DNA of 63,947 nucleotides, filler included, from Welwitschia mirabilis (taxonomy: Eukaryota), in assembly GCA_051453625.1 (NCBI GenBank). It is 4 parts of one record of this genome, joined end to end, with 100 filler letters (N's around TTAATTAATTAA, not from the genome) between each part and the next. Parts side by side here need not be neighbours in the genome. Positions count along the whole stretch, not along the records: positions 1 to 21,179 come from JBOZIK010000001.1; positions 21,280 to 45,368 come from JBOZIK010000001.1; 2 more parts are not named here. One strand, given 5' to 3'. The number at the start of each line of letters is the position of its first letter. The first letter of the stretch is position 1. Both the position numbers and the translations under genes were made by a program. Under the pieces are notes generated by a model. It did not search any database. It was not told where the DNA came from and saw only the letters and a program-made list of their open reading frames with translations. Positions 7,985-58,808 of this stretch are shown piece after piece.

Positions 7985-8995
7985 ATGGTCTTCAAATGGC
8001 TTCAGTAGTCTGGAGAGGGTTCTAAGAAGAGAATAAAGGAGTCTGCTATCAAACCTCCAAGCTACATTTTTTTTAAAATGAACACAAATCATATAGAACA
8101 TTTTGAGAAACATTTTAAATCCAGCCTTATTACAATGGAAATGACTTGTGAACCTATGTAGTTTCTTAGTTTGAGAAAAGTCTAGACTCTCCTTGAGGAG
8201 GTGAACTGAAGTTATTTTCTCCATATTTCAAGTACATGCTATCCATTGGTAACTAGGTTATTTTATTCAAATGCTTGTTTTGATGCTATCTACTCCACAT
8301 TCATTACCATTATTTTTGATCATGAGATGCACATCACTACACATTTGATAGCTTTTCTTCTTAGGTTACCTTAAGGCAACATAAAAGAATATTCATCCAT
8401 AAATGAATCCTTTAAAGAGAAGGAAGCTACCACTTAGCATGTTTATGGTATGTTCCTCACCTAGAAGAAGACCCTCAAAGATTCTCAACTTCTTCCCAGG
8501 TTTTGTCTTCTACATTTGATTCTTTCATACAATTTTCTTCCTATTGCCAGGCACAGAGATAAAATCTTTAACTATTAAGTCTTTCTTCTCTACTCGTTGG
8601 ATTAGAGATGTGACATCGATGCTTCTAGTATTATGCTTAAGAACATGGTTAATCAACTTCAACCTCATAAGAGATGCTCCCTACCATATTTTCTTATCAC
8701 TTAAATTTGTCGACACTTTGACATTTCACATATTTATTAGTAAGAAGTTCAGAAGACAATGGGACCCATTAACTACATCATGCTCTCATAGATGCACATA
8801 TTTGAGGAGCCAACTGCTCCTTGTAGGTCCAAGATTAAGGCCTCTCATACTCTATAGATTCTTGACTTATTGTGCTTTCTTGACTCTTGTACTCAATACA
8901 TTAAGGATACACTCATTGCTAGTGGTACTTCTTAGCTGACACTTCTTAGAGTGAAGATGCATAGTCTTCTGAAGAATTCTTTGATTCTGACTAAA
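7985..8995 (+). pseudogene. Decayed Sirevirus env-like ORF
   Basis: Lies between pol and the PPT. Contains CYPLVTRLFYSNA at ~8236-8275 and an LPY..LIT-like motif at ~8677. Resembles the ORFs at 35784-36446 and 42430-42757. Boundaries approximate. Confidence 0.75.
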
Positions 8996-9048
8996 TTTTT
9001 CTATTGTATATTTCTCTTCTTTTTGTCCTTCCTATCTTTGATTTCATT

Positions 9049-9320
9049 AAAAAGGGGGATAAATATGTATATGTCAAATGTATTTCTTTTATAAAAGTTA
9101 ATGCCCAAGTTGTAATCTTTTAAATGTATCAAATTCTAATCTTTTAGTTAATATAAAACATGTTTTTACACCAATGAAAATCTCTTTTACTTAAGTTATT
9201 TTTACCTGTGTTTATCCAATAAAAATTGTGTCAATACAAGTTAGTTGCAAATTTATTTGATTAAGGGAAAGCACACATTTTAAAATATTATTTTTTCTCA
9301 ATCAATGACAAAGTGAGAGT
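9049..9320 (+). promoter_or_regulatory. Region with multiple polypurine tracts
   Basis: AAAAAGGGGGA at 9049-9059 and a degenerate CAAAGTGAGAG at ~9309-9319 just before the 3' LTR. Multiple PPTs are a known Sirevirus trait. Confidence 0.6.
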
Positions 9321-12952: not shown

Positions 12953-13117
12953 TTACATTTTAAATCAAAGCAACATTTGATTTTTTTGTGTGAAAAACAT
13001 GGATTTTACATTTTGATATTAGAGTAACATATGAATTTTTTAAGTGTAAAAGGTAGATTTTACATTTTAGTATTAGAGCAAGTAAAAGTTTTTTGTTGTA
13101 AGATTATGGACCTTACA
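12953..13117 (+). repeat. Three tandem ~53-bp units, each resembling an LTR end plus PBS (TTACA + TTTTGGTATCAGAGC-like)
   Basis: TTACA at 12953, 13006, 13060 and 13113. The first three are followed by degenerate versions of TTTTGGTATCAGAGCA. Confidence 0.6.
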
Positions 13118-13943
13118 TGAAATCCAAGTAGATCCTACCATTATGCCTTTAGTCTTTACCTCATACACCCTTATCTACTAAGGCATGCATTAGAATCTAG
13201 AGCATAGGATGCCTTGAATTCTCTAGCTTAAGAGAGATATGGATCTTTATATGTCCAAATATATAGTTATGGTAGTTAAAGATTACACAACAATCTTGGA
13301 GAGTGATGTAGTCTGACATAAGTCAAGGTCTATGTAAGACTTCCTTGGCATGCTACCAACTAAGACTTATTACTAGTGAAAGATGTTGTGTGATTAAGAA
13401 GTGGATAATTTCTAACTTTAATCCTTAATCATTAATAAACATTTTTATGAAAAAGTATTAAGTGTAAAAATAAAAATATTTAAAGATTAAATAAAAAGAG
13501 AAAAATGGATTTTATTTTGATATAGTAAAGTTAAGTAAATCTTACTTACCATCCAAACTTAACTTAATCTATTTAAATTACAAGTAAAATGATGCCTATA
13601 TGAAAAAAATAAAGTAAAGTAGATCTTATTCCACATTCTAGCTTGACTTGATGAAATATAAAGAGGGATTTAATGGACTTACATTTATTTAGAATAATTT
13701 AAAAAACTTAAAAATATGAAAAAAAGTACATGTGCATAGAAGAGGGCCAAAAAAATAACACAAATGCTTAAGGATGGGTTCAAAAGAAAAGTCACTAAAA
13801 TTTTAGTATTTAACATGTCAACATAAGAAGGAAAAATGCTAAGAAATGTAGCTTTAATGTGATAAAGTACACATGTAAAAGTAAAATTATTCAAATCCTT
13901 TAACCATCAAATGTGAATCTACTTTATAAAAATAGTTTCAATG

Positions 13944-13957
13944 TTAAATATTTATTA
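13944..13957. repeat. Candidate LINE target-site duplication, 3'-side copy (partner at 21442-21455)
   Basis: 14-bp exact match, extending to 20 bp with three transitions (13938-13957 vs 21436-21455). It is AT-only, so chance cannot be fully excluded. Confidence 0.65.
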
Positions 13958-14268
13958 TTTTTAAAAAAAGTATATATACTAAACTAGAAAATGTACATCA
14001 GGGTGTGATAACACCCAGGATTAACAGGAAAATTAAACTATTCAAAAACAAAAGAAATATATTCTACTAATTGTTTAGGAGAGGACTATGAAATAGAACA
14101 AAAATGGGGGAAAAACTGCCCCTAAGGAAATAGAAGGAACATGAGGGACTACCTATTTAGAAGAGTAAAAGCATGAAACTTCTAATAGACTAGAAGTAAA
14201 AATGCTCGTGCTACCAAAAGTTATAAAATACTTAAGATTGAAAAGGAAAAAGCCTAAAAGAAGGAGTA

Positions 14269-15824
14269 TTAGAGTCCTCTACAGAATGGAAACAAATTAC
14301 CATGATTGTGTTTAAGTAAGAAATAACCCATATCATCAAAGAGTACCTCAAAAGCTTGATTTACCTTCTTGAATTCTTTAGCACCTACTGGATTTTTATC
14401 TAGATGTAGTCTAAGGGCTTCTTTTTATAGCTTGACTAGATGGCTTGGGGAAGGGCTTTATGAGAGAATCCTAATGTGACAAAGGAACATCTCTTCAGTT
14501 CTTAAACTATTGCCAGCATNNNNNNNNNNNNNNNNNNNNNNNNNNNNNNNNNNNNNNNNNNNNNNNNNNNNNNNNNNNNNNNNNNNNNNNNNNNNNNNNN
14601 NNNNNNNNNNNNNNNNNNNTCAGTTCTTAAACTATTGCCAGCGTAACTTCCCATTAAGAAGCATTCATATTAATGTCCTCTTGAGGATGAGGCTGAATTT
14701 CTACTAAAAAAGAGTTTGAGGTAGAGTTCTAGGTAAGGCTAGGACTTGTTACTGGTTGAGGATAGGTCTGGTCATATCTACCTCGCTCCTAGGAGTTGGG
14801 GGATGGATGTTCTTGAACTGGCTTCTAAGCTATCTTGTGGGTAGGCTCTTGAGCTGTTTCCTACTAGGCTTGGGATGAAAAAATATTCTCTGAATGATCT
14901 AAGAATGAAGTCAGCCCCTCTCCCCATCCCACCTCAACTAGAGTTATTATGTGCAGTGGTTCCTCAGGATTAGGGGTTTCTTCCATAGTGGCTCTTCTTT
15001 TAAAGGCTCTTATTTGGGGAGTTTAATGTGGGCATTATTAAGGAGGAAATAAGGGGGGGAGGGGGTGGGAATGAGAGGGAGAGGAGAGGGGAGGGGGGAC
15101 TCTCTCTTAGCNNNNNNNNNNNNNNNNNNNNNNNNNNNNNNNNNNNNNNNNNNNNNNNNNNNNNNNNNNNNNNNNNNNNNNGAGCTTGGATAAAAAAGAA
15201 TAGTAAATTTACCTGACACCCTAGATCAAAGGCTTTGAGAAATGCAAAATGAATAACTAATAGTTTAGAGAAATTCCTAAACTGAATGAAATAGAGATCA
15301 ACTAGCTATGTTCCTGATCCCTATGGGGCCAGTAATGCCTTTCTGTTAACATGCCTACTTGAAATTTAGGAACTTCATCGTGGAAGAAGTACTTCATATT
15401 ATCCTCAGATTTTAAATAGAATACNNNNNNNNNNNNNNNNNNNNNNNNNNNNNNNNNNNNNNNNNNNNNNNNNNNNNNNNNNNNNNNNNNNNNNNNNNNN
15501 NNNNNNNNNNNNNNNNNNNNNNNNCATCATGGAAGAAGTACTTCATATTATCCTCAGATTTCAAATAGCATACATTCTCCTTCTGCGGGGATATCCAACA
15601 TTCTAAAGAGGGAATCTTTAGTTATCTCTATAGGGATTCTTCTAAAAGTTGTGCACCATCCTCTCCATCATCTATAAAAGGGGGTGATATCAATCCCCTG
15701 GACTCGCCTAAGCTTGTGCAAGAGGGATTTCCATCCCACAGCCTACACTTTTTTCCATAGGGTAGGGTAGCCTTTAAAAGAGGCTAAGATCAAAAGGCTC
15801 GATGATAAGCATAGCTCCCATCAT
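14269..15824 (-). pseudogene. Decayed extra ORF (or ORF2 extension): possible env-like/Transposase_32-like domain, Pro/Gln-rich linker, C-terminal J-domain
   Basis: Manual translation through stops and frameshifts: IIEPFDLSLF/KGYPTLWKKV*AVGWKSLLHKLRRVQGIDITPFYR...IPIEITKDSLFRMLDIPAEGEC...FLKAFDLGCQVNLLFFFIQA, then SPLPSPLPLIPTPSPP...QETAQEP...PQPVTSPS, then the J-domain. Most stops are consistent with CAG/CAA/CGA/TGG transitions. The 5' end is lost in the gap at 15825-16377. Confidence 0.7.
14332..14489 (-). pseudogene. DnaJ/Hsp40 J-domain, decayed
   Basis: CSFVTLGFSHKALPQAI*SSYKK/ALRLHLDKNPVGAKEFKKVNQAFEVLFDD matches the J-domain consensus (Y.VLGV...A....IKKAYRKLAL..HPDKNP....FK.IN.AYEVLSD). 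HLD at 14406-14398 is one C>T change from HPD. One stop and one frameshift. Confidence 0.88.
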
Positions 15825-16377
15825 NNNNNNNNNNNNNNNNNNNNNNNNNNNNNNNNNNNNNNNNNNNNNNNNNNNNNNNNNNNNNNNNNNNNNNNNNNNN
15901 NNNNNNNNNNNNNNNNNNNNNNNNNNNNNNNNNNNNNNNNNNNNNNNNNNNNNNNNNNNNNNNNNNNNNNNNNNNNNNNNNNNNNNNNNNNNNNNNNNNN
16001 NNNNNNNNNNNNNNNNNNNNNNNNNNNNNNNNNNNNNNNNNNNNNNNNNNNNNNNNNNNNNNNNNNNNNNNNNNNNNNNNNNNNNNNNNNNNNNNNNNNN
16101 NNNNNNNNNNNNNNNNNNNNNNNNNNNNNNNNNNNNNNNNNNNNNNNNNNNNNNNNNNNNNNNNNNNNNNNNNNNNNNNNNNNNNNNNNNNNNNNNNNNN
16201 NNNNNNNNNNNNNNNNNNNNNNNNNNNNNNNNNNNNNNNNNNNNNNNNNNNNNNNNNNNNNNNNNNNNNNNNNNNNNNNNNNNNNNNNNNNNNNNNNNNN
16301 NNNNNNNNNNNNNNNNNNNNNNNNNNNNNNNNNNNNNNNNNNNNNNNNNNNNNNNNNNNNNNNNNNNNNNNNNNNNN

Positions 16378-19300
16378 ATAAAGATTAATACTTTACTCTA
16401 AGTATAATGATGGAATAAATGATATCTATTTTAGGATTTGATTGACATATGGGATATTTTATGTTCACTTAAAATCCTCTCTTGAGCAATTGGTCTCTAG
16501 TTAAGACTCTATGATGGTTTTTTAACTAATAAAATACTTTATTTTTTTCTAGAATTTTTTGTATGAGTAATCTTTTCCATATTTCTTTAAAAGAATCTAT
16601 TTGGTTGAATCAAACTGATAGATGTTTAAATTTAGAAATTGTTATTAAGATTTAATGAGGTATTTCCTTAGGTAGAACTCCCCATGATCAATACTTTAAT
16701 TTCTGTATTTGTAATTAATTAAGTCACACCAAGGTTATCCTTCTTCATGTAGTTTTTTTAAGATCGTATGAGCTCTAGTAAGGATGCAGTCCTTTGGTTT
16801 CTAAATCCCCCAGCCCCCTGATTCTTTTGGATGACCAATAGCCTTCCATTTGTAGAGATGAATTTGGTAATGATCTTTTCCTCTTGATCATATGAACTCC
16901 TTTAAGGTCCTATTGATTTTTTGGATAATGTTTCTCGAGGAGGCAATAACAAAAGATATGTAACGGAAATAAAAAATTAAGTAAGAGTTTATGAGGATGA
17001 TATTTTCTTTAGATTAGAGAAAAATATTCTACCAAGAGTTGCATCGACTTTGAATGGATTCAAGGATATAATTCCATGTGAAGGTCTTGTGCTAGTTTTA
17101 AAGGAGAATTCCTAGATATATATCCTAAAGTATCCTAATTTTGCACTTATAATTTGGGCGATTTCACCTCCTTTGATACTTTTTCTACCTAAAGTGTATA
17201 TTCTTGACTTATTTCAATTGGTATGAAGAATAATAGCCACTACAAAAAGGTTCATAGAAATTTTGATAGCTTTTACTTGTTAACATGAAGCCTTGGTTAT
17301 AATGATGGTATCATCTGCATAGTGATTGTTAATAAAAGTTCAATTTTAATTCCTGTAACTCCATTTTTCTTAAAAAAACCTGTAAAACATTTATTACAAG
17401 GAGAAAAGGGTATCAGAATAGGGTGTTCCCTTGTCTTAAACTTCTGCCTACTAAAAAGAAATTTGATCTATAATTGTTGATATTCACACTGAATTTGGTT
17501 GAAGCATGCATGTCTAGCCAAAGATTAATGACATCTTGAGAAAAACCAATTTTTTAAGGATACACCCTAATGCTCATTAACTATCCAAATCATAAGCTTT
17601 AACAATATCTAATTTAGTACTAAGAAGAGGAAATTTATATTTTTTAATAGAATGAATGATCCCATGGATCAAGAGGATTTAATTTTGAATATACATGAAT
17701 TAGATAAAGTTAGCTTAATTTTTTGAAATCACATTAGAAAGTAGGGGGCAATACAACCAAGCATAATTTTTATGAAAGTCTATAAAGAACATTACAAACA
17801 CCTAGAGACCTAAAATCCTCTATTTTTCTAGCATTTCTTTTTTTAAGAATAAGAACCACCCTAGTTCTATTTATTTTCCTAGGGATTCACTTATTGTAAA
17901 AAAAAATTTGCATTACATATAGAAGGTTATCCCCTAATATGAAGAAATAGGATTTAAAAATTTTAACTGACCATCCATCAAGACCAGGGGCTTTATTATT
18001 CTTCAGGAACCTTACAGTAAGAAAGACCTTATTTCTACTTAGAGGTTTAGCCAACATAGAGTTGTCTTCATGTGAAATTTTCTTATTTTCTGAAATAAAG
18101 ATGGGGATGATACCATCCCATTTCTAGACTCATGAGATGGACCTGTAGTTCCTTAGCTATGTTCTCTTTATTTTCTATTATTTAACCTTTGATGAATAGC
18201 CTTCTGATTCTATTATCTAATCTATATTGGTTGACTTACTAGAAGAAAAACCTAGTATATTTATCATCCTCTTTAGTAATTTGATCCTTGAGCATTCTCT
18301 TCAGTAATTATTTTCATTAACATTTATTTTTTAAAGTTTTATAAGGCACTGATATTCTCTATTCTGTAAGCTATCCTAGTTTTCTTCCTCCTCCTACTCA
18401 GTTTGGATTCTTTTCATTTCTTTTTTAATCTCTGCTTTTGACTCAAATCTCTATTTATCTTTTCTTTTTCTAATCTCTTATATGGGCTTTTAAGGTATTA
18501 AAGCCTCTATACAAAAAAGTTATAGATTGAGACCCATGATACTAGGCCCATATTTTTTTCAGTAATGTTCTAGTTTTTGTCTAATTAATCTAGTACCATT
18601 CCATGTGAAATAGGATTTTCTAGAGCAAAATCGTCCCTACTTTGAGTTTAATAGGATGGTGGTCCAAAGAAATCCTCTTCATACCGTAAGCTTTAAATGG
18701 AAGTTTAGCTAAATCCTTACCTATAATAATTCTATCAATTTTAGATATAATCAGATCATTACCTACTTTTCTATAGGACCAAGTATACTTGAAACTAGTT
18801 ATAGGGATGTTTGTAAGAGAGTTTCTTATCAAAAAGTCTTTTAGGATTGAGGGTTCTCTAGAATTCCAATTATCACCTCCAAATTTTTCACAATGATGAA
18901 TACATTGATTGAAATCATCTAATATGAGTCATTTGAATCTATCTATTATAGTCCTTTAAACTTATTCCAAGATAAAGGCCTTATCTTAATTATTTTGGGG
19001 ATTGTAAAGGTTCATGATAGTCTAGGCTTCTTTTTTTAGAAATATTATGATGTGGTTCTTACTGCTATGAATTAGATATGCCTCTTTTTTTTATAGAGAT
19101 CATGAGGCCTCTAGAAGTGCCTTAGGATGCAAAGATAAAGGAAGTTCATTACTGCTCTAAACTTACTTTTTCCATATCATTTTTTATCTTTGTTTCTTAT
19201 AAATAAAATAGATCAATGTTAAACTAACTGATAATGTTTCTTAGGGTTTTTTCCTTATAAGAGGATCTAATCCCATATAATTTTATGTAAGACAATTCAT
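16378..19300 (-). pseudogene. LINE ORF2 (AP endonuclease and reverse transcriptase), decayed
   Basis: Starts MNCLT*N at 19300. Endonuclease motifs DDFN, YTWS, SKIDR, LDHHPI. RT motifs KAPGLDG (~17990), KLDIVKAYD, LRQG, HYADDT (~17315), YLGI, and a PKE.GG-like motif (~16820). Runs into a gap. Confidence 0.93.
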
Positions 19301-21100
19301 TGGAGGCATTTTTATCCCTTTCTATGTTCTTGACATTTCCTTAGAGTATTTTCAATGGTGGATTAGAAAATATTAGTAACATTTTCTGTCATTTCCCATT
19401 CTCGAAGTGTTCTATTACTAGTCCTCCCCTTTGTTTGAATTTCTACTTTATTAGGTTCATCACTATTTTGAGGTTTTTGGGTATCATATTCTTCTACAAG
19501 AGGTTGAAAGAGGTTATACTTCATCTCTTGTACTTTCTTTTTCTTCCTATTCTTAGTTTCCTTGGGGAAAATATTAGTGTCTTTCCCTATATGTTCCTTC
19601 TTTTGCTTATGTGGGCATAGGCTCTGATTGTGTCCGGTCTTTCCATAAAAAGTACATGTTTCCTTTAGCTTTTCCTTAATATTAATTAGCTATTTTATAC
19701 ATTATTCTCTTAAAAGACTTAATCTGCCATAATGTAAACATTTTTTNNNNNNNNNNNNNNNNNNNNNNNNNNNNNNNNNNNNNNNNNNNNNNNNNNNNNN
19801 NNNNNNNNNNNNNNNNNNNNNNNNNNNNNNNNNNNNNNNNNNNNNNTTTTTGGGTATCATATTCTTCTACAAGAGGTTGAAAGAGGTTATACTTCATCTC
19901 TTGTACTTCCTTTTTCTTCCTATTCTTAGTTTCCTTGGGGAAAATATTAGTGTTTTTCCCTATATGTTCCTTCTTTTGCTTATGTGGGCATAGGCTCTGA
20001 TTGTGTCTGGTCTTTCCATAAAAAGTACATATTTCCTTTAGCTTTTTCTTAATATTAATTAGCTATTTTATACATTTTTCTCTTAAAAGACTTAATCTGC
20101 CATAATGTAAACATTTTTTTAAGGAGGAGCACATCTCTAAGAAAGATGTTTTAATTTTTTACAAACTGTAGAGGGGATCAGAAGCTTCTCATAAGTGATG
20201 TCAAGCTTACAAATAGCCCATTTAGATCTAAATTTTAGAGATTTAATATTCTTTGTATCTTCTAGACTCATCCAAAAACAAAATTTGGTCAACACTACTC
20301 TTGTCTATTTGATAGTGACCCTTCAAGTTTGATGAGTTCACCAAACTAAGTTACCATTATCTTTAAGAGATCTTCATTCCAAAACTCCAATAGAAACTTG
20401 TGGATGTGGATTCAAATCTGTAACCTCTTAAATAGATTTAGGTACATTTGTATTCCTACATTTACTTAGCTAGGGCAAGACCTCAAACCCCAAATAACTA
20501 AGATCCTCTCATGATCATTTCATCCCAATCTCATTCGTTATCTAATTAGAATAATAATAGCCCTTCCAGCATAGCAATAACATCAACTTTACTCACTCCT
20601 ATCCATTTAGCGATCACCCATTTATAGATCCAATCCAATCTAGGCTAAGGGTTANNNNNNNNNNNNNNNNNNNNNNNNNNNNNNNNNNNNNNNNNNNNNN
20701 NNNNNNNNNNNNNNNNNNNNNNNNNNNNNNNNNNNNNNNNNNNNNNNNNNNNNNGTATATTTGTATTCCCACATTTACTTAGCTAGGGCAAGACCTCGAA
20801 CCTCAAATAACTAAGATTCTCTCATGATCATTTCATTCCAATCTCATTCGTTATCTAATTAGAATAAGAATGGCCCTTCCAGCATAGTAATAACATCAAC
20901 TTTACTCACTCCTATCCATTTAGCAATCACCCATTTATAGATCCAATCCAATCTAGGCTAAGGGTTAGATGAAACGTACTTTTTGATTAGAATATATCGA
21001 AGTTTCTTCTTGATCTCATAGCATGTATCTTCATCAATGTATAAAACTAGGGATTTTTCTTTCCTAGTATCGAGGTGTGAATTTATGTAATCTTGAAGTC
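19301..21100 (-). pseudogene. LINE ORF1 (DUF4283-type domain and zinc knuckle), decayed
   Basis: QI*IHIHKFLLEFWNEDLLKIMVT*FGELIKLE at ~20420-20325 and YEKLLIPSTVCKKLKH at ~20193, typical of plant L1 ORF1. The start is approximate. Confidence 0.8.
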
Positions 21101-21223
21101 CTTAGATAAATCTGTAAATGATGTAACTTGCAAAAAGACACATGCTAGTATAGATAAGAGTTCACCTTAATGTCGTAATNNNNNNNNNNNNNNNNNNNNN
21201 NNNNNNNNNNNNNNNNNNNNNNN

Positions 21224-21235
21224 TTAATTAATTAA
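21224..21235. other. Artificial scaffold linker TTAATTAATTAA (also at 45413-45424 and 59237-59248)
   Basis: Identical 12-mer with stops in all six frames, centred between two 44-N runs, occurring three times. Confidence 0.95.
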
Positions 21236-23294
21236 NNNNNNNNNNNNNNNNNNNNNNNNNNNNNNNNNNNNNNNNNNNNACCAAAATTGCTCTTACACTC
21301 TGTAACTAGAGATTAAAATCACTCCCATCGATCTGTGGTTTTGCAAGCCTCACTCCCTTCTATGCTCCAGATCCAATGAATCCTAGCAGAGCTCCAAAAC
21401 CCTAGCAGAGCTTAGATTATTAACTTCATCAGTTATTAGTATTAAATATTTATTAAAGCATCTAATCTTGGTGCTATTCTTATTGCTAATGCTTATACTT
21501 CTTTATACTTTTTCATGAATTCCGTGTCATATTCCATATTTTATAAACCTTACTTACTTGAATATTTAGTACGCTAATATTTTAATCAAATGATTAANNN
21601 NNNNNNNNNNNNNNNNNNNNNNNNNNNNNNNNNNNNNNNNNNNNNNNNNNNNNNNNNNNNNNNNNNNNNNNNNNNNNNNNNNNNNNNNNNNNNNNNNTCT
21701 TGGTGCTATTCTTGTTGCTAATGCTTATACTTCTTTATACTTTTGCATGAATGCCATGTCATATTCCATATTTTATAAACCTTACTTACTTGAATATTTA
21801 GTATGTTAAGATTTTAATCAAATGATTAATTATCCTTATTTAAATTCCTTATTAAATAACATATTATTTTAAATTAACTTTAGTTTATAACTTTCATAAT
21901 TTACCATAAAAATGAAAAAAATTATGTTAGAAGGTTTTTACGAAAAAAGGTATCCAAACATTTAAAATTAAAGAATCCCATTATGTAAGGAATTAAAATG
22001 ATATAAATTGAAAACTTCAAGAGGACATAATAATATATTTTGAATCCTACTTACTCATTTAAATTCTTCATAAATGTGATAGGTGTACTATATTATGGAT
22101 AGACATTTTCTTCCTTGCATTATGTGATTGACAAATTTTATGTATTTTGAAATAAATAAATATTTGAATAAGTACATGCAATCTTGCCTAGAACAAAAAA
22201 TGATAAGTAAGTAGATTTACTCTATCATGACTTTTATCTTTTTGAGACGTGTAAGGGCACTTGGTTCATAGCATACTCATTGTTTTATTCATTGGAATTA
22301 AAGAGTTTATCTCATTAGACCATATAACAATTTTTAGATTTATGCANNNNNNNNNNNNNNNNNNNNNNNNNNNNNNNNNNNNNNNNNNNNNNNNNNNNNN
22401 NNNNNNNNNNNNNNNNNNNNNNNNNNNNNNNNNNNNNNNNNNNNNNAAATAAATATTTGAATAAGTACATGCAATCTTGTCTAGAACAAAAAATGATAAG
22501 TAAGTAGATTTACTCTACCATGACTTTTATCTTTTTGAGATGTGTAAGGGCACTTGGTTCATAGCATACTCATTGTTTTATTCATTAGAATTAAAGAGTT
22601 TGTCTCATTAGACCATATAACAATTTTTAGATTTATGCATTTATTATTTCGATGCATGTCCTAGATGAATTAAACTTACTTAGGGGTCTATGAAGGATTA
22701 AAAAGAGCTATCATGAGGAAATGATGCATTTAATTAATCTTACTAATTAAAGCAAAAAGATTACTCACCTTACTTATGTTTATGAGTCATAAATATGATT
22801 AATTTTATACTCCACTGTTACTTATTACTCATCTCACTTATCAATGCTAAATCATTTGATCTTNNNNNNNNNNNNNNNNNNNNNNNNNNNNNNNNNNNNN
22901 NNNNNNNNNNNNNNNNNNNNNNNNNNNNNNNNNNNNNNNNNNNNNNNNNNNNNNNNNNNNNNNAAAGAGCTATCATGAGGAAATGATGCATTTAATTAAT
23001 CTTGCTAATTAAAGCAAGAATATTACTCACCTTACTTATGTTTATGAGTCATAAATATGATTAATTTTGTACTCCAATGTTACTTATTACTCATCTCACT
23101 TATCAATGCTAAATCATGTGATCTTGAGCTATGTGACTTTGTTTATGTATATATTGAGATCCTTTTCTCTCTTGAAAAAGGAAATACTTTTCTTNNNNNN
23201 NNNNNNNNNNNNNNNNNNNNNNNNNNNNNNNNNNNNNNNNNNNNNNNNNNNNNNNNNNNNNNNNNNNNNNNNNNNNNNNNNNNNNNNNNNNNNN

Positions 23295-34468: not shown

Positions 34469-35659
34469 GTATAATCTAATTTCATACCTACTTCTTTAAT
34501 TTTTGAACTATTTATTTTATCATTGTTATTTTTATTTAGTATAAATTTTTATAAATCATTCTACTTATGTTTTTTTCAATTTTTGTATTGATAAGATTAG
34601 GTTTTGACTTATTCATAAATTTAAATTTTTTATTTTTTATTTTCATAGATGGATCTTTATTGACATCTAACCATTCTATAGAACCATTATACCATGGACA
34701 ATTAGTAGGTTTAGGATAATTTTTGTAATACTATTCACATAATTTAGATTCCTTATCTTTAATAACATACTTTATTTTTTATTTAATTCATTGNNNNNNN
34801 NNNNNNNNNNNNNNNNNNNNNNNNNNNNNNNNNNNNNNNNNNNNNNNNNNNNNNNNNNNNNNNNNNNNNNNNNNNNNNNNNNNNNNNNNNNNNNNNNNNN
34901 NNTCTAATCTTAACTTATTTTATATCAAGATATGAGATAACATCTCTAATGGTAAAAATATTTTGATTTTTAATGCATTCTCTACTTAATAAATCCATAT
35001 TCTCTATAGTTTACCTGTTAAATCCTCTAAGGAATGCTATTGTTCTTTCCCTTACATCTATTCTATTATTAGGATATCTTTGTAATATAATAGTATAAAT
35101 ATCATAGAATTCATCAAATTTTTTCATATGAACCCTATTTAATGCTTCTTGTTTCATCCCTTAAATCTTTTAAAACACTTAAATATTGATATTTTTCCTA
35201 AAAATAACTTTAATATTATTCCTACTTCTAATGTTCTATTTTGGAATTCCTTGATACTAAAGCATTTCATCTATTTTTAGTAAAGAGTAAAAGTATTTTT
35301 TACTATTAATTTCTAAAATAGTTGGCTTTACTAAAAGAGTTAAATAAAATAAGATGTAATGTTGAGTTTTTTATCCTAAAATGTTAGCATTAGAGTGATA
35401 TCAGTGTCTCTTATTTTCTCAGAGGGAAAAAATACTCTTTCATCTATAGGACTAAATTTCATAGATTTAATTAGATGATCCATTGGCAATGCAACTAAAA
35501 TTCCATAATTTTCTTAATTATCATGTTTGCACTAAAAATTTTGAGACACAAATTGGAAACAAATTTAAGAGCATAAAAACAAGTACATTTTTATTTCATT
35601 AAACTAAGTAGTACAAAGTAAAAGTACTTATTAATAGCAAACTACATCTAAAAGTATAA

Positions 35660-36446
35660 TAAAAATATAACTAATTCTCCTCCTTTTAACATAAATGAAA
35701 AAGAAGAGAAAAATACACTTAATCAAAAGTAGAGAATAAACATAATCATATGAAAAGATGTGATTAGATTTCTCCTCTTCTTCTTATTCTTCAAAATATT
35801 CTTTCTCTTCTTCACCTATTGTTCTTGCTAAGATAGTCGCTTTTACTAAAGTGTTAGCAATGTTATACCTAGCTACAATGAGGGCTTCCTTAATATGTTT
35901 GATATGATATTCAATCCATCTCAGACATGGAAGAGTCTCATCAGGAGAGGCTTTCTTAGGAGAGGATGATTTTGAAGATTTTTTAGAAGGGATAAATATG
36001 TGCATGTAAGATAACATCGCACACCTAATGGATGTTATAGGTTGAAGAGCTTCAAGCTTAATATGAAAAGGCACATGAAAATAATGACACAAATTAGTGA
36101 TTAGAATAGAGTAGGGTAAGGACCTAGTCCTATGGTAATCTAACTGAGAGATTAAATTTTTCAGTATGATGGTAAGGGCATCAATGTAGTGCTTAGTTTC
36201 TACCAAATACATCAAATATGCTCTATAGTTAGAGAACTCATCACGATGGCCCACAAAAAGAAGAAAATTATAAGTAAAGATCTAATGAAGGAAATAGTAT
36301 TTGGAAGTAAGCAAGGAAGTGGAAATGGTATGTTCCATGAATGTGAATTACCACAAATTTCTCTTATGGCTATTGGCTTATCTTCCATAGAGTTACCAAG
36401 AGGCCATAAATCTTCATAATATCCTATGTGTAGATCAGTAAGATTN
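35660..36446 (-). pseudogene. Sirevirus env-like ORF fragment with downstream PPT-like tract
   Basis: ORF 36254-35784 contains SLPYSILITNLCHYFHVP, resembling the ORF at ~8680. AAAAGGAGGAGAA on the minus strand at ~35675-35687. Confidence 0.7.
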
Positions 36447-39017: not shown

Positions 39018-41960
39018 CTAATATAGAGGAAGTCATTTATAAAGGTTACATTATGCTTATGTTAACTCAAACTAATGTCAATGATAATAATATCCTAGTT
39101 CTCAAAGCCCAAGATCAATGAACCTCCATTGATAAGTCAAAAACCATTATAGATGCCCATACTCTTAATGCCATATTTTGTGCAGTTTTTATAGATGAGT
39201 TTAAATGCATAATAAACTATAATCATGCTAAAAAAGCTTAAGATATTCTTAAAGTAGCATATGAAAGAATCTTAACTGTAAAGCAAGAAAAACTTTAGAT
39301 TCTTATTTCAAAATTTGAAGATATCCATATGGATGAAGAAGAGACCTTGTAAGAATTCTTTGCTAGACTGATATCATAAACTCTATGATAAGACTTGGAG
39401 AATGCTTAGATGAAGAAAATATGGTAAGGAAAGTCTTGATCTCNNNNNNNNNNNNNNNNNNNNNNNNNNNNNNNNNNNNNNNNNNNNNNNNNNNNNNNNN
39501 NNNNNNNNNNNNNNNNNNNNNNNNNNNNNNNNNNNNNNNNNNNNNNNNNNNNNNNNNNNNNNNNNNNNNNNNNNNNNNNNNNNNNNNNNNNNNNNNNNNN
39601 NNNNNNNNNNNNNNNNNNNNNNNNNNNNNNNNNNNNNNNNNNNNNNNNNNNNNNNNNNNNNNNNNNNNNNNNNNNNNNNNNNNNNNNNNNNNNNNNNNNN
39701 NNNNNNNNNNNNNNNNNNNNNNNNNNNNNNNNNNNNNNNNNNNNNNNNNNNNNNNNNNNNNNNNNNNNNNNNNNNNNNNNNNNNNNNNNNNNNNNNNNNN
39801 NNNNNNNNNNNNNNNNNNNNNNNNNNNNNNNNNNNNNNNNNNNNNNNNNNNNNNNNNNNNNNNNNNNNNNNNNNNNNNNNNNNNNNNNNNNNNNNNNNNN
39901 NNNNNNNNNNNNNNNNNNNNNNNNNNNNNNNNNNNNNNNNNNNNNNNNNNNNNNNNNNNNNNNNNNNNNNNNNNNNNNNNNNNAGAGCAAAGACATAAAT
40001 GCAATGACATTGGAAGTACTATAAGGTAATTTGCAAACCTATGAATTTAAATTTTTTAAAGATAAGATAAAACGTATTACTTTAAAATATGTGTAGGAAG
40101 ACTATAGATCTGTATGCGTAGGAAGACTATATATCTGAAAGATCAAATGAGGACTTAGACAATGATGAAGTGGCTCTTCTAGCTAAAAAGTTTAGAAAGT
40201 TTCTACACAGGAAGAAAAAGGAGAATCAAGTAGAAATTAAAAAATGAGTCATCTAAAATACAAAAAGAAAAAAGAAAAAGATAAAGAAATCCAATGCTAC
40301 TCACAAAAAGGATTTGGTCATATGACAAATAAGTACTCTAACATAAGGAGAGATAATAGGAAAATAAAAAATCCCTCATTTATTACTACATAGGATAATG
40401 ATGATGATGATGAAAGCTATTCAAATCAAGAATAAGATAGAGATAGAAGGTTATTTTTTATGGCTATTATACCATTCCTCGAAGATGTTCCTAGAACATT
40501 AAAGCCTGATTATTTAGACATGATCAATGAAGAAAAGGATGAGTTGGAAGATACATGTCAAGAGCTATATGATAAATATAAAAAGTTAGCTAAGAGGATA
40601 AATGATATAAATAAAGTAGTGAAGAATCTCATCAAATAGAATGAGAAAATGAAAATAAAATATAATGTGCTAAAATCTAAGAACACCAATCTAACGTCTT
40701 AGGTAAAATATCTTTCCTTCTTTGTAAATAACTTTTCTANNNNNNNNNNNNNNNNNNNNNNNNNNNNNNNNNNNNNNNNNNNNNNNNNNNNNNNNNNNNN
40801 NNNNNNNNNNNNNNNNNNNNNNNNNNNNNNNNNNNNNNNNNNNNNNNNNNNNNNNNNNNNNNNNNNNNNNNNNNNNNNNNNNNNNNNNNNNNNNNNNNNN
40901 NNNNNNNNNNNNNNNNNNNNNNNNNNNNNNNNNNNNNNNNNNNNNNNNNNNNNNNNNNNNNNNNNNNNNNNNNNNNNNNNNNNNNNNNNNNNNNNNNNNN
41001 NNNNNNNNNNNNNNNNNNNNNNNNNNNNNNNNNNNNNNNNNNNNNNNNNNNNNNNNNNNNNNNNNNNNNNNNNNNNNNNNNNNNNNNNNNNNNNNNNNNN
41101 NNNNNNNNNNNNNNNNNNNNNNNNNNNNNNNNNNNNNNNNNNNNNNNNNNNNNNNNNNNNNNNNNNNNNNNNNNNNNNNNNNNNNNNNNNNNNNNNNNNN
41201 NNNNNNNNNNNNNNNNNNNNNNNNNNNNNNNNNNNNNNNNNNNNNNNNNNNNNNNNNNNNNNNNNNNNNNNNNNNNNNNNNNNNNNNNNNNNNNNNNNNN
41301 NNNNNNNNNNNNNNNNNNNNNNNNNNNNNNNNNNNNNNNNNNNNNNNNNNNNNNNNNNNNNNNNNNNNNNNNNNNNNNNNNNNNNNNNNNNNNNNNNNNN
41401 NNNNNNNNNNNNNNACAAAATTAGACAATTAATACTTTTCTCAGATTTTGTAAATTCTTTAGCATTTAAATTTATTCCTAAAAGATGTGTACCACCTAAG
41501 TTAAATAAGACTAAGTGGGTTAGAGCTAATAATCTCAAACATTTTCTAATATAGATAGCTTTAAGAGGATCTAGTAAAATAGTTTCTATTTAGACAGTGG
41601 ATGCTCAAGCCATATAACTAGAAAAAGATCAAACTTCTAACACATAATGAGTATTAATGGGGAAGAAATCATTTTTGGAAATAATAAAAAGGCAAAGATA
41701 GAAAGTATAGGATGCATTAAAGGAGGCAAGTTATCTAAACTTGATGATGTACTTTATTTAAATGTTTTAAAACATAATTTATTAAGAATTAGTCAATTGT
41801 GTGGAAAAGGTCATAAAGTAATTTTTGGAAAATCAAAATGTAAAGTTGTAGATACGAAAATAAATATTTCTACATTTACTAAAAAATGAGTAGATACTAT
41901 CTATAAAATAGATACTTATTTGATCGATCAGTTAAATCATATGAACTATGATAGGCAGAG
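39018..41960 (+). pseudogene. Decayed Sirevirus gag-protease
   Basis: MVRKVLI, DEVALLAKKFRKF, QCYSQKGFGHM (zinc knuckle, ~40292), YLDSGCSSH (~41587) and LKHNLLRISQLC. Interrupted by gaps. Confidence 0.88.
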
Positions 41961-57618: not shown

Positions 57619-58808
57619 TGTTACGATGCTATTTGTAGGAATTTGATGGTGTATTTTGAGTACATTTATAGGACATTCATATAGGTTTTAATGCAATACC
57701 AATGACTATGGATATCTGACAGGATGATTAGTAAAATATGTGATACTTAGGATTTTTAGTAGTTTTTCAAGCCTATTCTGACACTGCATATTTAGAAGAA
57801 GGACTTCATGATACAAAAAGATTGACTTACCTTTGTGATTGAAGAAAAGGAAGACTGTCAACCCTTTTATCATCCCACGATAGGTAGGACAACAACACTA
57901 CTAAGATGGACAAAAGTTACAGAGCTGACAGTAGCACATGAAGAACAAACAGACATGTGGCACATGACATCATTTCCTATGTCATCTCCACAGCATNNNN
58001 NNNNNNNNNNNNNNNNNNNNNNNNNNNNNNNNNNNNNNNNNNNNNNNNNNNNNNNNNNNNNNNNNNNNNNNNNNNNNNNNNNNNNNNNNNNNNNNNNNNN
58101 NNNNNNNNNNNNNNNNNNNNNNNNNNNNNNNNNNNNNNNNNNNNNNNNNNNNNNNNNNNNNNNNNNNNNNNNNNNNNNNNNNNNNNNNNNNNNNNNNNNN
58201 NNNNNNNNNNNNNNNNNNNNNNNNNNNNNNNNNNNNNNNNNNNNNNNNNNNNNNNNNNNNNNNNNNNNNNNNNNNNNNNNNNNNNNNNNNNNNNNNNNNN
58301 NNNNNNNNNNNNNNNNNNNNNNNNNNNNNNNNNNNNNNNNNNNNNNNNNNNNNNNNNNNNNNNNNNNNNNNNNNNNNNNNNNNNNNNNNNNNNNNNNNNN
58401 NNNNNNNNNNNNNNNNNNNNNNNNNNNNNNNNNNNNNNNNNNNNNNNNNNNNNNNNNNNNNNNNNNNNNTATAAGTTATAGAAAAGGTAGTCTCTGTAAT
58501 AGAAGAACTAAGATCTAAGTAGAATCCATTTCCATTTTCCATTCACTACATTTCATATCCATTCATCTTGCATTGCTTTTGCATTGTTATTTACTTTTAG
58601 TTATTAAAAGACAAAAGACTAAAAATGCCTTTGGAAATCAATTCTCTAACTCTAATCCCTATGCTTTCATTGGAATTACGACATTTGGGTGAACTCCTAT
58701 TTATAGTAGCATGTATTTTTCTATAAGTTATTTGATTTATAGGTTTATCTAAAGAGCTTCAGGATTGCATAAATTCACACCGCAACATTTTGGTGCCATT
58801 TATAAGAA
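57619..58808 (+). mobile_element. Athila-type 5' LTR (57619-58787) with PBS
   Basis: Imperfect terminal inverted repeats TGTTACG...CGCAACA, followed directly by TTTTGGTGCCATT. Starts where homology between the two Athila copies stops. Confidence 0.8.

What the first reader, a model, noticed from the sequence alone, without database searches (positions are those of the whole stretch)
13944..21455. L1-clade LINE that appears to carry its own DnaJ J-domain coding region inside its target-site duplication
Seen in sequence: on the minus strand, ORF1 is followed by ORF2 (EN-RT), a 553-N gap, ~1.5 kb of same-strand coding remnant ending in a clear J-domain (14489-14332), a ~300-bp 3' UTR and a short A-tail. 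The whole unit is bracketed by TTAAATATTTATTA (13944-13957 and 21442-21455). Established: plant L1s normally have two ORFs, with ORF2 ending in a zinc finger and sometimes RNase H. J-domains recruit Hsp70 through HPD, and polyomavirus T antigens use one to hijack host Hsp70. Inference: this may be a LINE family with a third ORF, or an extended ORF2, that recruited host Hsp70. I do not know of such a plant L1, but I could not search. A one-off 3' transduction of neighbouring sequence is the main alternative. This copy is dead.
Basis: partly seen in the sequence, partly recalled or inferred. Interest (0 to 1): 0.88.

Follow-up and report, generated by a model that had tools for sequence, protein, structure and literature searches.

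The report
Multi-copy J-domain retroposon behind dead L1
A decayed J-domain (Hsp70-recruiting) coding remnant really lies just downstream of a dead plant-type L1 element, and it belongs to a many-copy, poly(A)-ended mobile unit, but assembly gaps hide whether that unit is part of the L1 or a separate hitch-hiking element.

Summary
Partly confirmed. The minus strand holds a badly decayed plant-type L1 (ORF1, endonuclease, RT and zinc-finger remnants, about 21068-16378). A 553-N gap follows, and a real but broken J-domain remnant lies at 14483-14332. It reads HLD instead of HPD, has no helix IV and is split by a 1-base deletion.

Reads and contigs from four public runs show the J segment is not single-copy. 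Its depth is in the range of the L1 body. Other copies end exactly at 13958 and continue into A-rich tails. Other copies also carry the base this copy lacks and AAG where it has an in-frame TAG. This rules out a one-off transduction of unique DNA.

The "1.5 kb coding remnant" is not supported, because only the J-domain shows protein similarity. The 14-base "target-site duplication" is doubtful: an LTR fragment sits between its 5' copy and the L1, the word is A/T-only, and chance is about 4%.

The link between J unit and L1 RT stays untested, because the junction may lie in the 553-N or 70-N gap. My odds:
- About 0.45: a separate L1-mobilised retroposon in tandem.
- About 0.3: a 3' module of the L1 family, of which about 0.1 is a working J-domain.

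The parts
13944..13957 (-). 3' copy of the 14-base A/T-only word proposed as target-site duplication; may equally be degenerate tail
   Evidence: Exact match to 21442-21455. It directly follows the family terminus at 13958.
13958..13962 (-). Five A's; 13958 is the 3' terminus of the repeat family
   Evidence: loose ends at 13958 in 93 (X1) and 85 (X2) contigs. The consensus beyond is T-rich on the + strand (A-rich on the - strand), with agreement 0.48-0.49.
13963..14268 (-). Untranslated-like 3' region of the J unit
   Evidence: No protein similarity. Multi-copy: bin 14092-14364 has depth 255 in X14. Depth is uneven, and 81-91-base length variants occur among copies (table 5).
14269..14483 (-). 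J-domain remnant (14483-14332) plus a 20-codon tail and a TAA stop (14271-14269). It is split into two frames by a 1-base deletion near 14418-14421, has HLD at 14406-14398, and has an in-frame TAG at 14438-14436.
   Evidence: One search shows that other copies have one extra base behind 14420 and T for A at 14438 (+ strand): 59 of 59 and 64 of 66 reads in X14.
14520..14619 (.). Artefact gap (100 N) between overlapping contig ends
   Evidence: A 25-base overlap with 1 mismatch. A contig joins 14485 to 14644 with 33 letters between (table 5c).
14620..15111 (-). Region upstream of the J-domain, with a C/T-rich tract at its 5' end. No coding evidence. Possibly the leader of the J unit.
   Evidence: Depth is 91 (14638-14910) and 22 (14911-15183) in X14.
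15112..15181 (.). 70-N gap with no flank overlap; could hide an L1 A-tail or the J-unit 5' end
15182..15824 (-). Multi-copy segment of unknown nature (L1 3' region or another repeat). It contains an artefact gap at 15425-15524.
   Evidence: A 49-base overlap with 3 mismatches. Depth is 63-170. Other copies run on past 15778 for a median of 58-65 letters, that is into the 553-N gap. No protein similarity.
15825..16377 (.). 553-N scaffold gap; flanks do not overlap
16378..19300 (-). L1 ORF2 remnant: endonuclease about 19300-18650, RT about 18000-17130 (YADD at 17321-17310), zinc-binding zf-RVT 16627-16436 running to the gap edge. Many frameshifts and stops.
   Evidence: zf-RVT E 0.11. Motifs read by eye. 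No Pfam RVT_1 or endonuclease hit and no PDB hit.
19301..21068 (-). L1 ORF1 remnant: DUF4283 at 20945-20784, CCHC knuckle at 19659-19609. It includes two artefact duplications around the 100-N gaps.
   Evidence: DUF4283 E 0.0068. (273-bp and 213-bp duplicates flanking gaps 19747-19846 and 20655-20754).
21075..21179 (-). Terminal piece of a very high-copy LTR abutting the L1 ORF1 start
   Evidence: 82% match to 58675-58781, where a TGG-starting primer-binding-like site follows. Depth 1137. Loose ends at 21074/21075 lead into that same site in other copies.
21442..21455 (-). 5' copy of the 14-base word; separated from the L1 by the LTR piece and two 44-N gaps

Best explanation
The J-domain is the decayed coding remnant of a small J-protein reading frame. 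About 90 codons are readable in this copy across one frameshift and several in-frame stops. It sits near the 3' end of a multi-copy, poly(A)-ended retroposon unit that spread by the L1 copy-and-paste machinery (target-primed reverse transcription).

At this locus one old, dead copy of that unit (about 15111-13958) lies in tandem, on the same strand, directly behind a dead plant-type L1 (about 21068-15182). The L1's own ORF2 end and A-tail are hidden in the 553-N and 70-N gaps. L1 endonuclease favours A-rich targets, so insertion into a pre-existing poly(A) tail in the same orientation gives exactly this arrangement (established knowledge, recalled).

Shown: the J-domain similarity, the multi-copy status, the family 3' end with A-rich tails, and the better frame in other copies.

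Inferred: that the unit is separate from the L1, where its 5' end lies, and that it derives from a host J-protein transcript.
For: All depths below are (runs X1, X2, X14, X15; reads counted from 80% likeness). X14 depths are both directions summed per 273-base bin, N not corrected.

- Multi-copy status. Depth is 154, 255 and 213 over 13819-14637. The left flank 13273-13818 has 21-29. The L1 bins range from 47 to 594.
- Gradient. Depth rises towards the 3' end: 22 (14911-15183), 91, 213, 255, and about 600 at place 13979. This is what 5'-truncated retrocopies of a roughly 1.1-kb unit starting near the 70-N gap would give.
- Family 3' end. It lies at 13958 in 93 (X1) and 85 (X2) contigs, followed by T-runs on the + strand.
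- No sharp 5' boundary inside 13958-15824 appears among the best-supported loose ends that were listed.
- Better frame in other copies. They carry one more base behind 14420 (69 and 88 contigs) and AAG instead of TAG at 14438-14436. In them the two J-domain halves are in one frame.
- A second, more divergent group (61 contigs, loose end at 14406). Over 10 codons it differs by 4 synonymous single-base changes and 3 replaced codons.
- J-domain similarity.
- The sequence between the gap and the J-domain shows no coding signal. The unit starts with a C/T-rich tract.
- The 70-N gap has no overlapping flanks, unlike the two 100-N gaps inside this stretch.
Against: - No L1 A-tail and no J-unit 5' end is actually seen; both are only placed in gaps.
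- J-unit depth is in the range of the L1 body. That would follow naturally if the two were one element.
- The segment 15457-15729 (depth 170) is also multi-copy, and other copies continue from 15778 into the 553-N gap. The repeat may therefore be longer than 1.1 kb.
- Depth is a poor copy-number measure here. Of 25108 X14 reads, 23095 lie only partly on the stretch, and depth varies 30-fold within the L1 itself.
- Only a small part of the tables was shown: 3191 other-letter places, 718 joints and 12792 loose ends were not listed.
Confidence: 0.45

Rival explanations
1. The J unit is the 3' module of this L1 (sub)family, carried as a passenger. A master L1 picked up a host J-domain exon with surrounding sequence, by read-through (3' transduction) or template switching. 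All its progeny then ended with that module. The J-domain did nothing for the element.
For: - The J unit is on the same strand, directly downstream, and no L1 tail is visible in the sequenced parts.
- J-unit depth (213-255) is in the range of the ORF2 3' part (130-389).
- Other copies continue past 15778 towards the L1 side.
- No sharp J-unit 5' boundary appears among the listed loose ends.
- The J-domain stops after helix III, as a captured exon might.
- No coding signal links ORF2 and the J-domain.
Against: - Depth falls to 22-91 between 14638 and 15456.
- About 2.4 kb behind the zinc finger is long for a plant L1 3' region (recalled).
- The junction is unseen.
- The bracketing duplication that would tie both parts into one insertion is doubtful.
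Confidence: 0.2
2. Active masters of this L1 family encoded a working J-domain, as a third ORF or as an extension of ORF2, that recruited host Hsp70 to the element's ribonucleoprotein.
For: - As for the passenger model.
- In addition, other copies restore the reading frame.
- Two divergent copy groups keep the YRKKAL core through synonymous changes only. Over 10 codons there are 4 synonymous changes and 3 replaced codons (read by hand). This hints at past selection on the protein.
Against: - The hint rests on 10 codons of consensus strings with agreement 0.68-0.81. A selected host source gene would explain it equally well.
- HPD reads HLD here, and its state in other copies was not shown.
- Helix IV is absent in all three frames.
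- No open or coding-like frame joins ORF2 to the J-domain.
- No RT-plus-DnaJ protein was found: 0 relatives among longer proteins, and 2 hits in 1.84 billion representatives, neither a LINE.
- No such element turned up in three literature searches.
Confidence: 0.1
3. A one-off composite. This single L1 copy read through its own weak terminator into a pre-existing downstream J-unit copy at its source locus. It was polyadenylated at that unit's signal, so L1, spacer and J unit arrived here as one insertion.
For: - The 14-base word occurs at both ends.
- There is a lower-copy spacer at 14638-15456.
- The composite ends exactly at the J-unit terminus.
Against: - The 5' word lies beyond an LTR fragment rather than at the L1 edge.
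- The word is A/T-only and adjoins the tail.
- 104 of 2473 random anchors give such a match.
Confidence: 0.1
4. A scaffolding artefact. In a genome where every piece is repeated, the contigs on the two sides of the 553-N gap were joined wrongly and are not neighbours at all.
For: - There are 47 N runs in 64 kb, and several flank unmerged overlapping contig ends.
- All bins of the stretch are multi-copy.
Against: A wrong join would need mate pairs linking these two repeats, and such pairs would themselves point to adjacency somewhere in the genome. There is no direct evidence of misassembly.
Confidence: 0.1

Closest known systems
Plant L1-clade LINEs (ORF1 with DUF4283/CCHC; ORF2 with APE endonuclease, RT and zf-RVT, sometimes RNase H)
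   Same: The order of the ORF1 and ORF2 remnants, the weak DUF4283 and zf-RVT matches, the YADD motif, and the poly(A)-type spread of the locus.
   Different: Nothing known in this clade carries a J-domain. That rests on my recall, plus three searches that found none. Here the J-domain lies about 2 kb behind the zinc finger, across two gaps.
Non-autonomous poly(A) retroposons and amplified retrocopies mobilised by LINEs (for example the Sadhu elements of Arabidopsis; recalled, not seen in any call)
   Same: Multi-copy, an A-tailed 3' end, ragged 5' ends, no reverse transcriptase of its own, and tandem placement behind another retroposon.
   Different: It carries a recognisable J-domain reading frame, and its abundance is in the range of the L1 itself. 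Its source gene is unknown.
L1 3' transduction and exon shuffling (recalled from the mammalian literature)
   Same: Extra same-strand sequence between the LINE body and the final A-tail.
   Different: The extra segment is not unique DNA. It is itself a repeat family with its own terminus.
Insect R1 LINEs with an added C-terminal viral-type helicase domain in ORF2 (PMC4686597; only the search listing and the start of the abstract were seen)
   Same: A precedent for a LINE gaining a foreign protein domain at the 3' side of ORF2.
   Different: There the domain is in frame within ORF2 and full length. Here no frame links the two, and the domain is truncated.
J-domains of DnaJ/Hsp40 proteins (Pfam PF00226; best solved match the C. 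elegans DNJ-12 J-domain, 2och)
   Same: Helix II, loop and helix III are similar, E 3.2e-7.
   Different: HLD instead of HPD, no helix IV, a score below Pfam's cut-off, and a frameshift plus in-frame stops.

Membership tests
L1-clade LINE | APE-type endonuclease at the start of ORF2 | tested here: inconclusive
   Motifs were read by eye (LQETK 19202-19188; DDFN...SLDHHP 18928-18653). There was no Pfam hit at E<=0.1 and no PDB hit at E<=1.
L1-clade LINE | Reverse transcriptase with a Y/FADD catalytic motif | tested here: inconclusive
   YADD at 17321-17310 and PGLDG at 17988-17974 were read. Pfam RVT_1 was not reported. There were 0 PDB hits at E<=10 for all three frames.
L1-clade LINE | Zinc-binding zf-RVT region behind the RT (plant L1 type) | tested here: inconclusive
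   PF13966 E 0.11, 13.6 bits against a cut-off of 27.5, at 16627-16436.
L1-clade LINE | ORF1 of the plant type (DUF4283 plus CCHC knuckle) | tested here: inconclusive
   PF14111 E 0.0068, 16.6 bits against a cut-off of 27.2. The CCHC pattern was read.
L1-clade LINE | Placement of the RT in the L1 clade by phylogeny | not tested
   No reference L1 proteins could be fetched (one search found none), and the RT is too broken.
   No genome is held. The one read-laying run showed only short pieces. Protein and metagenome searches found no copies.
   Depth is 154-255 per bin against 21-29 in the left flank. There are dozens of distinct contigs per place.
J-domain (PF00226) | Significant sequence similarity to J-domains | tested here: met
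   PDB phmmer gave E 3.2e-7 and 23 sequences at E<=1; 22 are named J-domain or DnaJ proteins and one is unnamed. tblastn gave E 2e-7. The Pfam score of 18.3 is below the 27.8 cut-off.
J-domain (PF00226) | HPD tripeptide between helices II and III | tested here: not met
   This copy reads HLD (CAT CTA GAT, 14406-14398). The state in other copies was not among the places listed.
J-domain (PF00226) | Complete four-helix domain | tested here: not met
   The match covers profile positions 22-56 of 63. The first half lies in another frame. Nothing like helix IV appears in any frame after 14332.
One-off L1 3' transduction | Transduced segment is unique DNA traceable to one source locus | tested here: not met
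   The segment is a repeat family with its own A-tailed terminus.
LINE-dependent poly(A) retroposon | Family copies end at one 3' terminus followed by A-rich tails of differing sequence | tested here: met
   Loose ends at 13958 in 93 and 85 contigs, with a T-run consensus on the + strand and agreement 0.48-0.49.
LINE-dependent poly(A) retroposon | Target-site duplication flanking the unit at this locus | tested here: inconclusive
   The only candidate is the 14-mer pair, whose 5' copy lies beyond an LTR piece. A 5' end near 15111 would be hidden by the 70-N gap.

The most novel reading that the evidence does not exclude
A plant L1 lineage whose active masters encoded a J-domain protein at their 3' end, as ORF3 or an ORF2 extension. 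It was kept under purifying selection across subfamilies and used to bring host Hsp70 to the L1 ribonucleoprotein. It left a very large number of dead copies, of which this is one.
Probability: 0.1. Interest if true: 0.85.

Novelty: new variant of a known kind. Interest (0 to 1): 0.42.

Why it matters
If the J unit proves to be part of the L1, it would be the first LINE known to carry a chaperone-recruiting domain. It would also be a natural parallel to the J-domains of polyomavirus T antigens (recalled). It would point to Hsp70 as a limiting host factor for target-primed reverse transcription.

If the unit is a separate element, it is still an unusually abundant non-autonomous retroposon that derives from, and preserves traces of, a J-protein gene. 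That would make it useful as a marker of L1 activity in this very AT-rich, CpG-depleted plant genome.

Either way the question can now be settled with any long-read assembly of the species.

Tried and rejected
- Ciliate code (TAA/TAG = Q). It opens long frames everywhere: 52 ORFs of at least 250 aa in all frames. I rejected it for three reasons. The window holds plant-type transposon proteins (PF20167 twice, weak; copia Pol_BBD E 4.6e-16). Differences among copies are dominated by transitions, 2169 to 667 in X14. The in-frame TAG at 14438 is AAG in other copies, and one contig has CAA where the window has an in-frame TAA just upstream of the J-domain.
- Whole genome: none is held.
- Earlier findings: nothing by place, sequence, relatives or words.
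- Protein searches. The J piece against longer proteins gave 0 hits. The J piece against 1.84 billion representatives gave 2 hits. One is a repetitive, unrelated protein and one an ordinary N-terminal J-protein. The endonuclease piece against longer proteins gave 0 hits.
- Metagenome contigs: 412 pattern matches, none confirmed.
- PDB with the three L1 frames: 0 hits.
- Other copies inside the window: none by blastn, tblastn or nhmmer.
- Plus-strand genes under the J unit: none.
- The ESM Atlas look-up did not accept a reading under another code, so the post-gap segment got no feature-based look-up.
- Helitron or terminal-inverted-repeat ends at 13958: the sequence does not fit them (end motifs recalled).


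Full report
SETTING

The window is 28% G+C when N is left out. Its CpG observed/expected ratio is 0.14, and it has 47 N runs in 64 kb.

It holds plant-type transposon remnants:
- two weak matches to the 'putative plant transposon protein' PF20167 (E 2.4e-4 and 7.1e-6, both below the cut-off);
- a copia Pol beta-barrel domain (E 4.6e-16).

All of them carry in-frame TAA/TAG codons. Reading TAA/TAG as Gln opens long frames in every frame of the window: 52 ORFs of at least 250 aa. That is therefore no evidence of a ciliate-type code. Differences among repeat copies are mainly transitions, 2169 to 667 places in run X14. This fits cytosine deamination in an old, methylated plant repeat landscape. 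I did not determine the species.

THE LINE

By HMMER standards, however, the element is barely recognisable.
- Pfam gives only DUF4283 for ORF1 (E 0.0068, 16.6 bits, about 20945-20784) and zf-RVT (E 0.11, 13.6 bits, 16627-16436). Both are below their cut-offs.
- No RVT_1 or endonuclease family was reported.
- The three frames found nothing in the PDB at E<=10.
- The endonuclease piece found nothing in the PDB or among longer proteins.

The case for an L1-type element therefore rests on motifs that I read in the translations and recognise from memory:
- a CCHC knuckle at 19659-19609;
- LQETK at 19202-19188;
- DDFN...SLDHHP at 18928-18653;
- PGLDG at 17988-17974;
- YADD at 17321-17310;
- the Cys/His region running to the gap edge at 16378.

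Two 100-N gaps inside the element are flanked by near-identical duplicates of 273 and 213 bases, which are unmerged contig ends.

THE 5' SIDE AND THE PROPOSED DUPLICATION

L1 sequence stops at about 21068-21074. From 21075 upward lies the terminal part of a very abundant LTR.
- It matches 58675-58781 of this window at 82%.
- Its depth is 1137, against 47-594 for the L1 bins.
- In other copies it continues, beyond 21074/21075, into a conserved TGG-starting site: 691 and 287 reads in X14, and 735 and 361 in X15. The same site follows the LTR end at 58782 in this window.

The 5' copy of the 14-base word (21442-21455) lies about 370 bases further on, behind two 44-N gaps. I could not lay reads there, because the short piece between the N runs was not accepted.

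The word is A/T-only and directly adjoins the five-A tail, so it may be degenerate tail. In a control, 104 of 2473 random 76-base anchors had an exact 14-mer match 3-12 kb away. The same 3' zone has a second, 15-base match at 24162. The pair exists, but it is weak evidence for a single insertion.

THE J-DOMAIN

The stretch 14427-14335 is J-domain-like.
- Pfam DnaJ: E 0.0026, 18.3 bits, below the 27.8 cut-off, profile positions 22-56 of 63.
- PDB phmmer: 23 sequences at E<=1; 22 are named J-domain or DnaJ proteins and one is unnamed. The best is C. elegans DNJ-12, E 3.2e-7.
- A library J-protein: 17 of 31 identities, E 2e-7 within the window.

The loop reads HLD, not HPD (14406-14398).

The N-terminal half is in another frame: 'CSFVTLGFSHKALPQAIQSSYKKK', read from 14519. 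It has the spacing of helix I and II of J-domains as I recall them. On its own it gave no Pfam match at E<=1.

After 14332 no frame shows anything like helix IV. A 20-codon tail ends at TAA 14271-14269.

THE SEQUENCE BETWEEN THE GAP AND THE J-DOMAIN

Two of the gaps inside it are artefacts. Their flanks overlap by 49 bases (3 mismatches) and by 25 bases (1 mismatch). The 70-N gap at 15112-15181 has no such overlap.

After merging the overlaps inside a script, the J frame upstream of the domain has 12 TAA/TAG in 192 codons. The other two frames have 11 and 6. The J frame differs only in having no TGA, against 3 and 3 (counted by hand).

No Pfam family matches any of the six frames. The '1.5 kb of coding remnant' is therefore not supported. 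The segment begins with a C/T-rich tract.

WHAT THE PUBLIC READS ADD

The one read-laying run allowed covered 13000-21179. I used contigs of runs X1 and X2 and raw reads of X14 and X15, counted from 80% likeness.

Caveats:
- Most raw reads lie only partly on the stretch (23095 of 25108 in X14).
- Most are under 90% alike (21831 of 25108).
- Bins contain N.
- Depth varies about 30-fold within the L1.
- Only the best-supported rows of each table were shown.

Findings:

(a) The J segment is not single-copy. X14 depth, both directions summed, is 154, 255 and 213 for 13819-14637. The left flank 13273-13818 has 21-29. The ORF2 3' part has 130-389.

(b) Homology in other copies ends at 13958: 93 contigs in X1 and 85 in X2, with a median of 255 loose letters. 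Beyond it the consensus is a T-run on the + strand with low agreement (0.48-0.49). On the element's strand these are A-rich tails followed by differing flanks. This is the signature of LINE-type retroposition.

(c) Loose ends at 14420 (69 and 88 contigs, agreement 0.78-0.81) are not a boundary. They continue the window's sequence with one additional base. At 14438 nearly all reads have T for A on the + strand (59 of 59 and 64 of 66 in X14), which turns the window's in-frame TAG into AAG. Read by hand, other copies thus encode the two J-domain halves in one frame, with 'YRKKAL' before the H-x-D. This copy's break is private.

(d) A second group (61 contigs in X2, loose end at 14406, agreement 0.68) is more divergent. 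Over the same 10 codons it differs from the first group or the window by 4 synonymous single-base changes and 3 replaced codons, and it keeps the YRKKAL core. This is a hint of past selection on the protein, on very little data.

(e) Depth is 91, 22 and 63 in 14638-15456 and 170 in 15457-15729. Contigs run on from 15778 for a median of 58-65 letters, which reaches into the 553-N gap.

(f) A 300-base contig of X1 is identical to 13264-13563. A 388-base contig of X2 spans the 13958 junction (13607-13993, 12 differences). The same insertion is therefore present in the second organism label.

WHAT THIS MEANS

The segment is not unique transduced DNA, and it is not single-copy. It is a mobile, A-tailed unit that once encoded a better J-domain.

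Whether that unit is the tail of the L1 family cannot be decided here. No genome is held, and no other copy could be fetched:
- the J piece found no relatives among longer proteins;
- it found only two unrelated or ordinary proteins among 1.84 billion representatives;
- it found nothing in metagenome contigs, where 412 pattern matches gave 0 confirmed;
- the window holds no second copy.

MY WEIGHING

For a separate, L1-mobilised retroposon in tandem (0.45):
- Depth rises towards the 3' end from the 70-N gap onwards: 22, 91, 213, 255, and about 600 at 13979. 5'-truncated copies of a roughly 1.1-kb unit would give this pattern.
- The unit looks like a small transcript: a C/T-rich leader, a short frame ending in the J-domain, a 300-base trailer and a tail.
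- The 70-N gap is the only one of the three in this stretch that is not an overlap artefact. It is a natural place for an unassembled A-tract.
- Same-strand tandem insertion into an older element's A-tail is expected from the endonuclease's target preference (recalled).

For membership in the L1 (0.3 in all):
- The abundance is similar.
- No L1 tail is visible.
- No sharp J-unit 5' boundary appears among the listed loose ends.
- Repeat sequence continues into the 553-N gap.

Within that 0.3, a functional J-domain gets about 0.1. There is no frame joining it to ORF2, it lacks helix IV, and the selection hint is equally explained by a selected host source gene.

A one-off composite and a mis-scaffold take the rest.

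LITERATURE

Three full-text searches found no non-LTR element with a J-domain. The nearest precedent listed was insect R1 LINEs with an added C-terminal helicase domain in ORF2 (PMC4686597). For that paper I saw only the listing and the start of the abstract.

VERDICT

The bold interpretation is neither shown nor excluded. The finding is a real and cheaply testable lead of moderate interest.

Noticed in passing
window 14520-14619, 15425-15524, 19747-19846, 20655-20754, 21598-21697: The 100-N gaps are flanked by near-identical duplicated ends of 25 to 273 bases at 94-98% identity. These are unmerged overlapping contig ends, probably haplotype differences. Frames and lengths read across these gaps are therefore unreliable.
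   Followed up: partly
window 21075-21179 and 58675-58800: Two copies, in opposite orientations, of the end of a very high-copy LTR. Depth is about 1100-2400, against 47-594 for the L1 bins. At 58782 a TGG-starting primer-binding-like site follows the LTR end, and the same site follows in most other copies in the reads.
   Followed up: partly
window 8210-9316 (+) and 35154-36413 (-): Two decayed copies of a 'putative plant transposon protein' (PF20167, E 2.4e-4 and 7.1e-6, both below the cut-off).
   Followed up: no
window 40169-41889 (+): A decayed copia-type Gag-Pol start with a Pol beta-barrel domain (PF22936, E 4.6e-16), interrupted by a long N run.
   Followed up: no
whole window: Extreme composition for a plant-like sequence: 28% G+C without N and a CpG observed/expected ratio of 0.14. 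Under a TAA/TAG=Gln reading, spurious ORFs of 250-500 codons appear in all six frames, which could mislead a reader into assuming a ciliate code.
   Followed up: yes
window 13000-13272: Another multi-copy repeat in the left flank (depth 135), with a sharp boundary at 13117 (195 and 197 contigs; 344 and 336 reads).
   Followed up: no
window 13958-14330: Copies of the J unit differ by 81-91-base length variants in the trailer (joints 14003>14085, 14048>14140, 14170>14262). Local depth there drops to 30-90.
   Followed up: no
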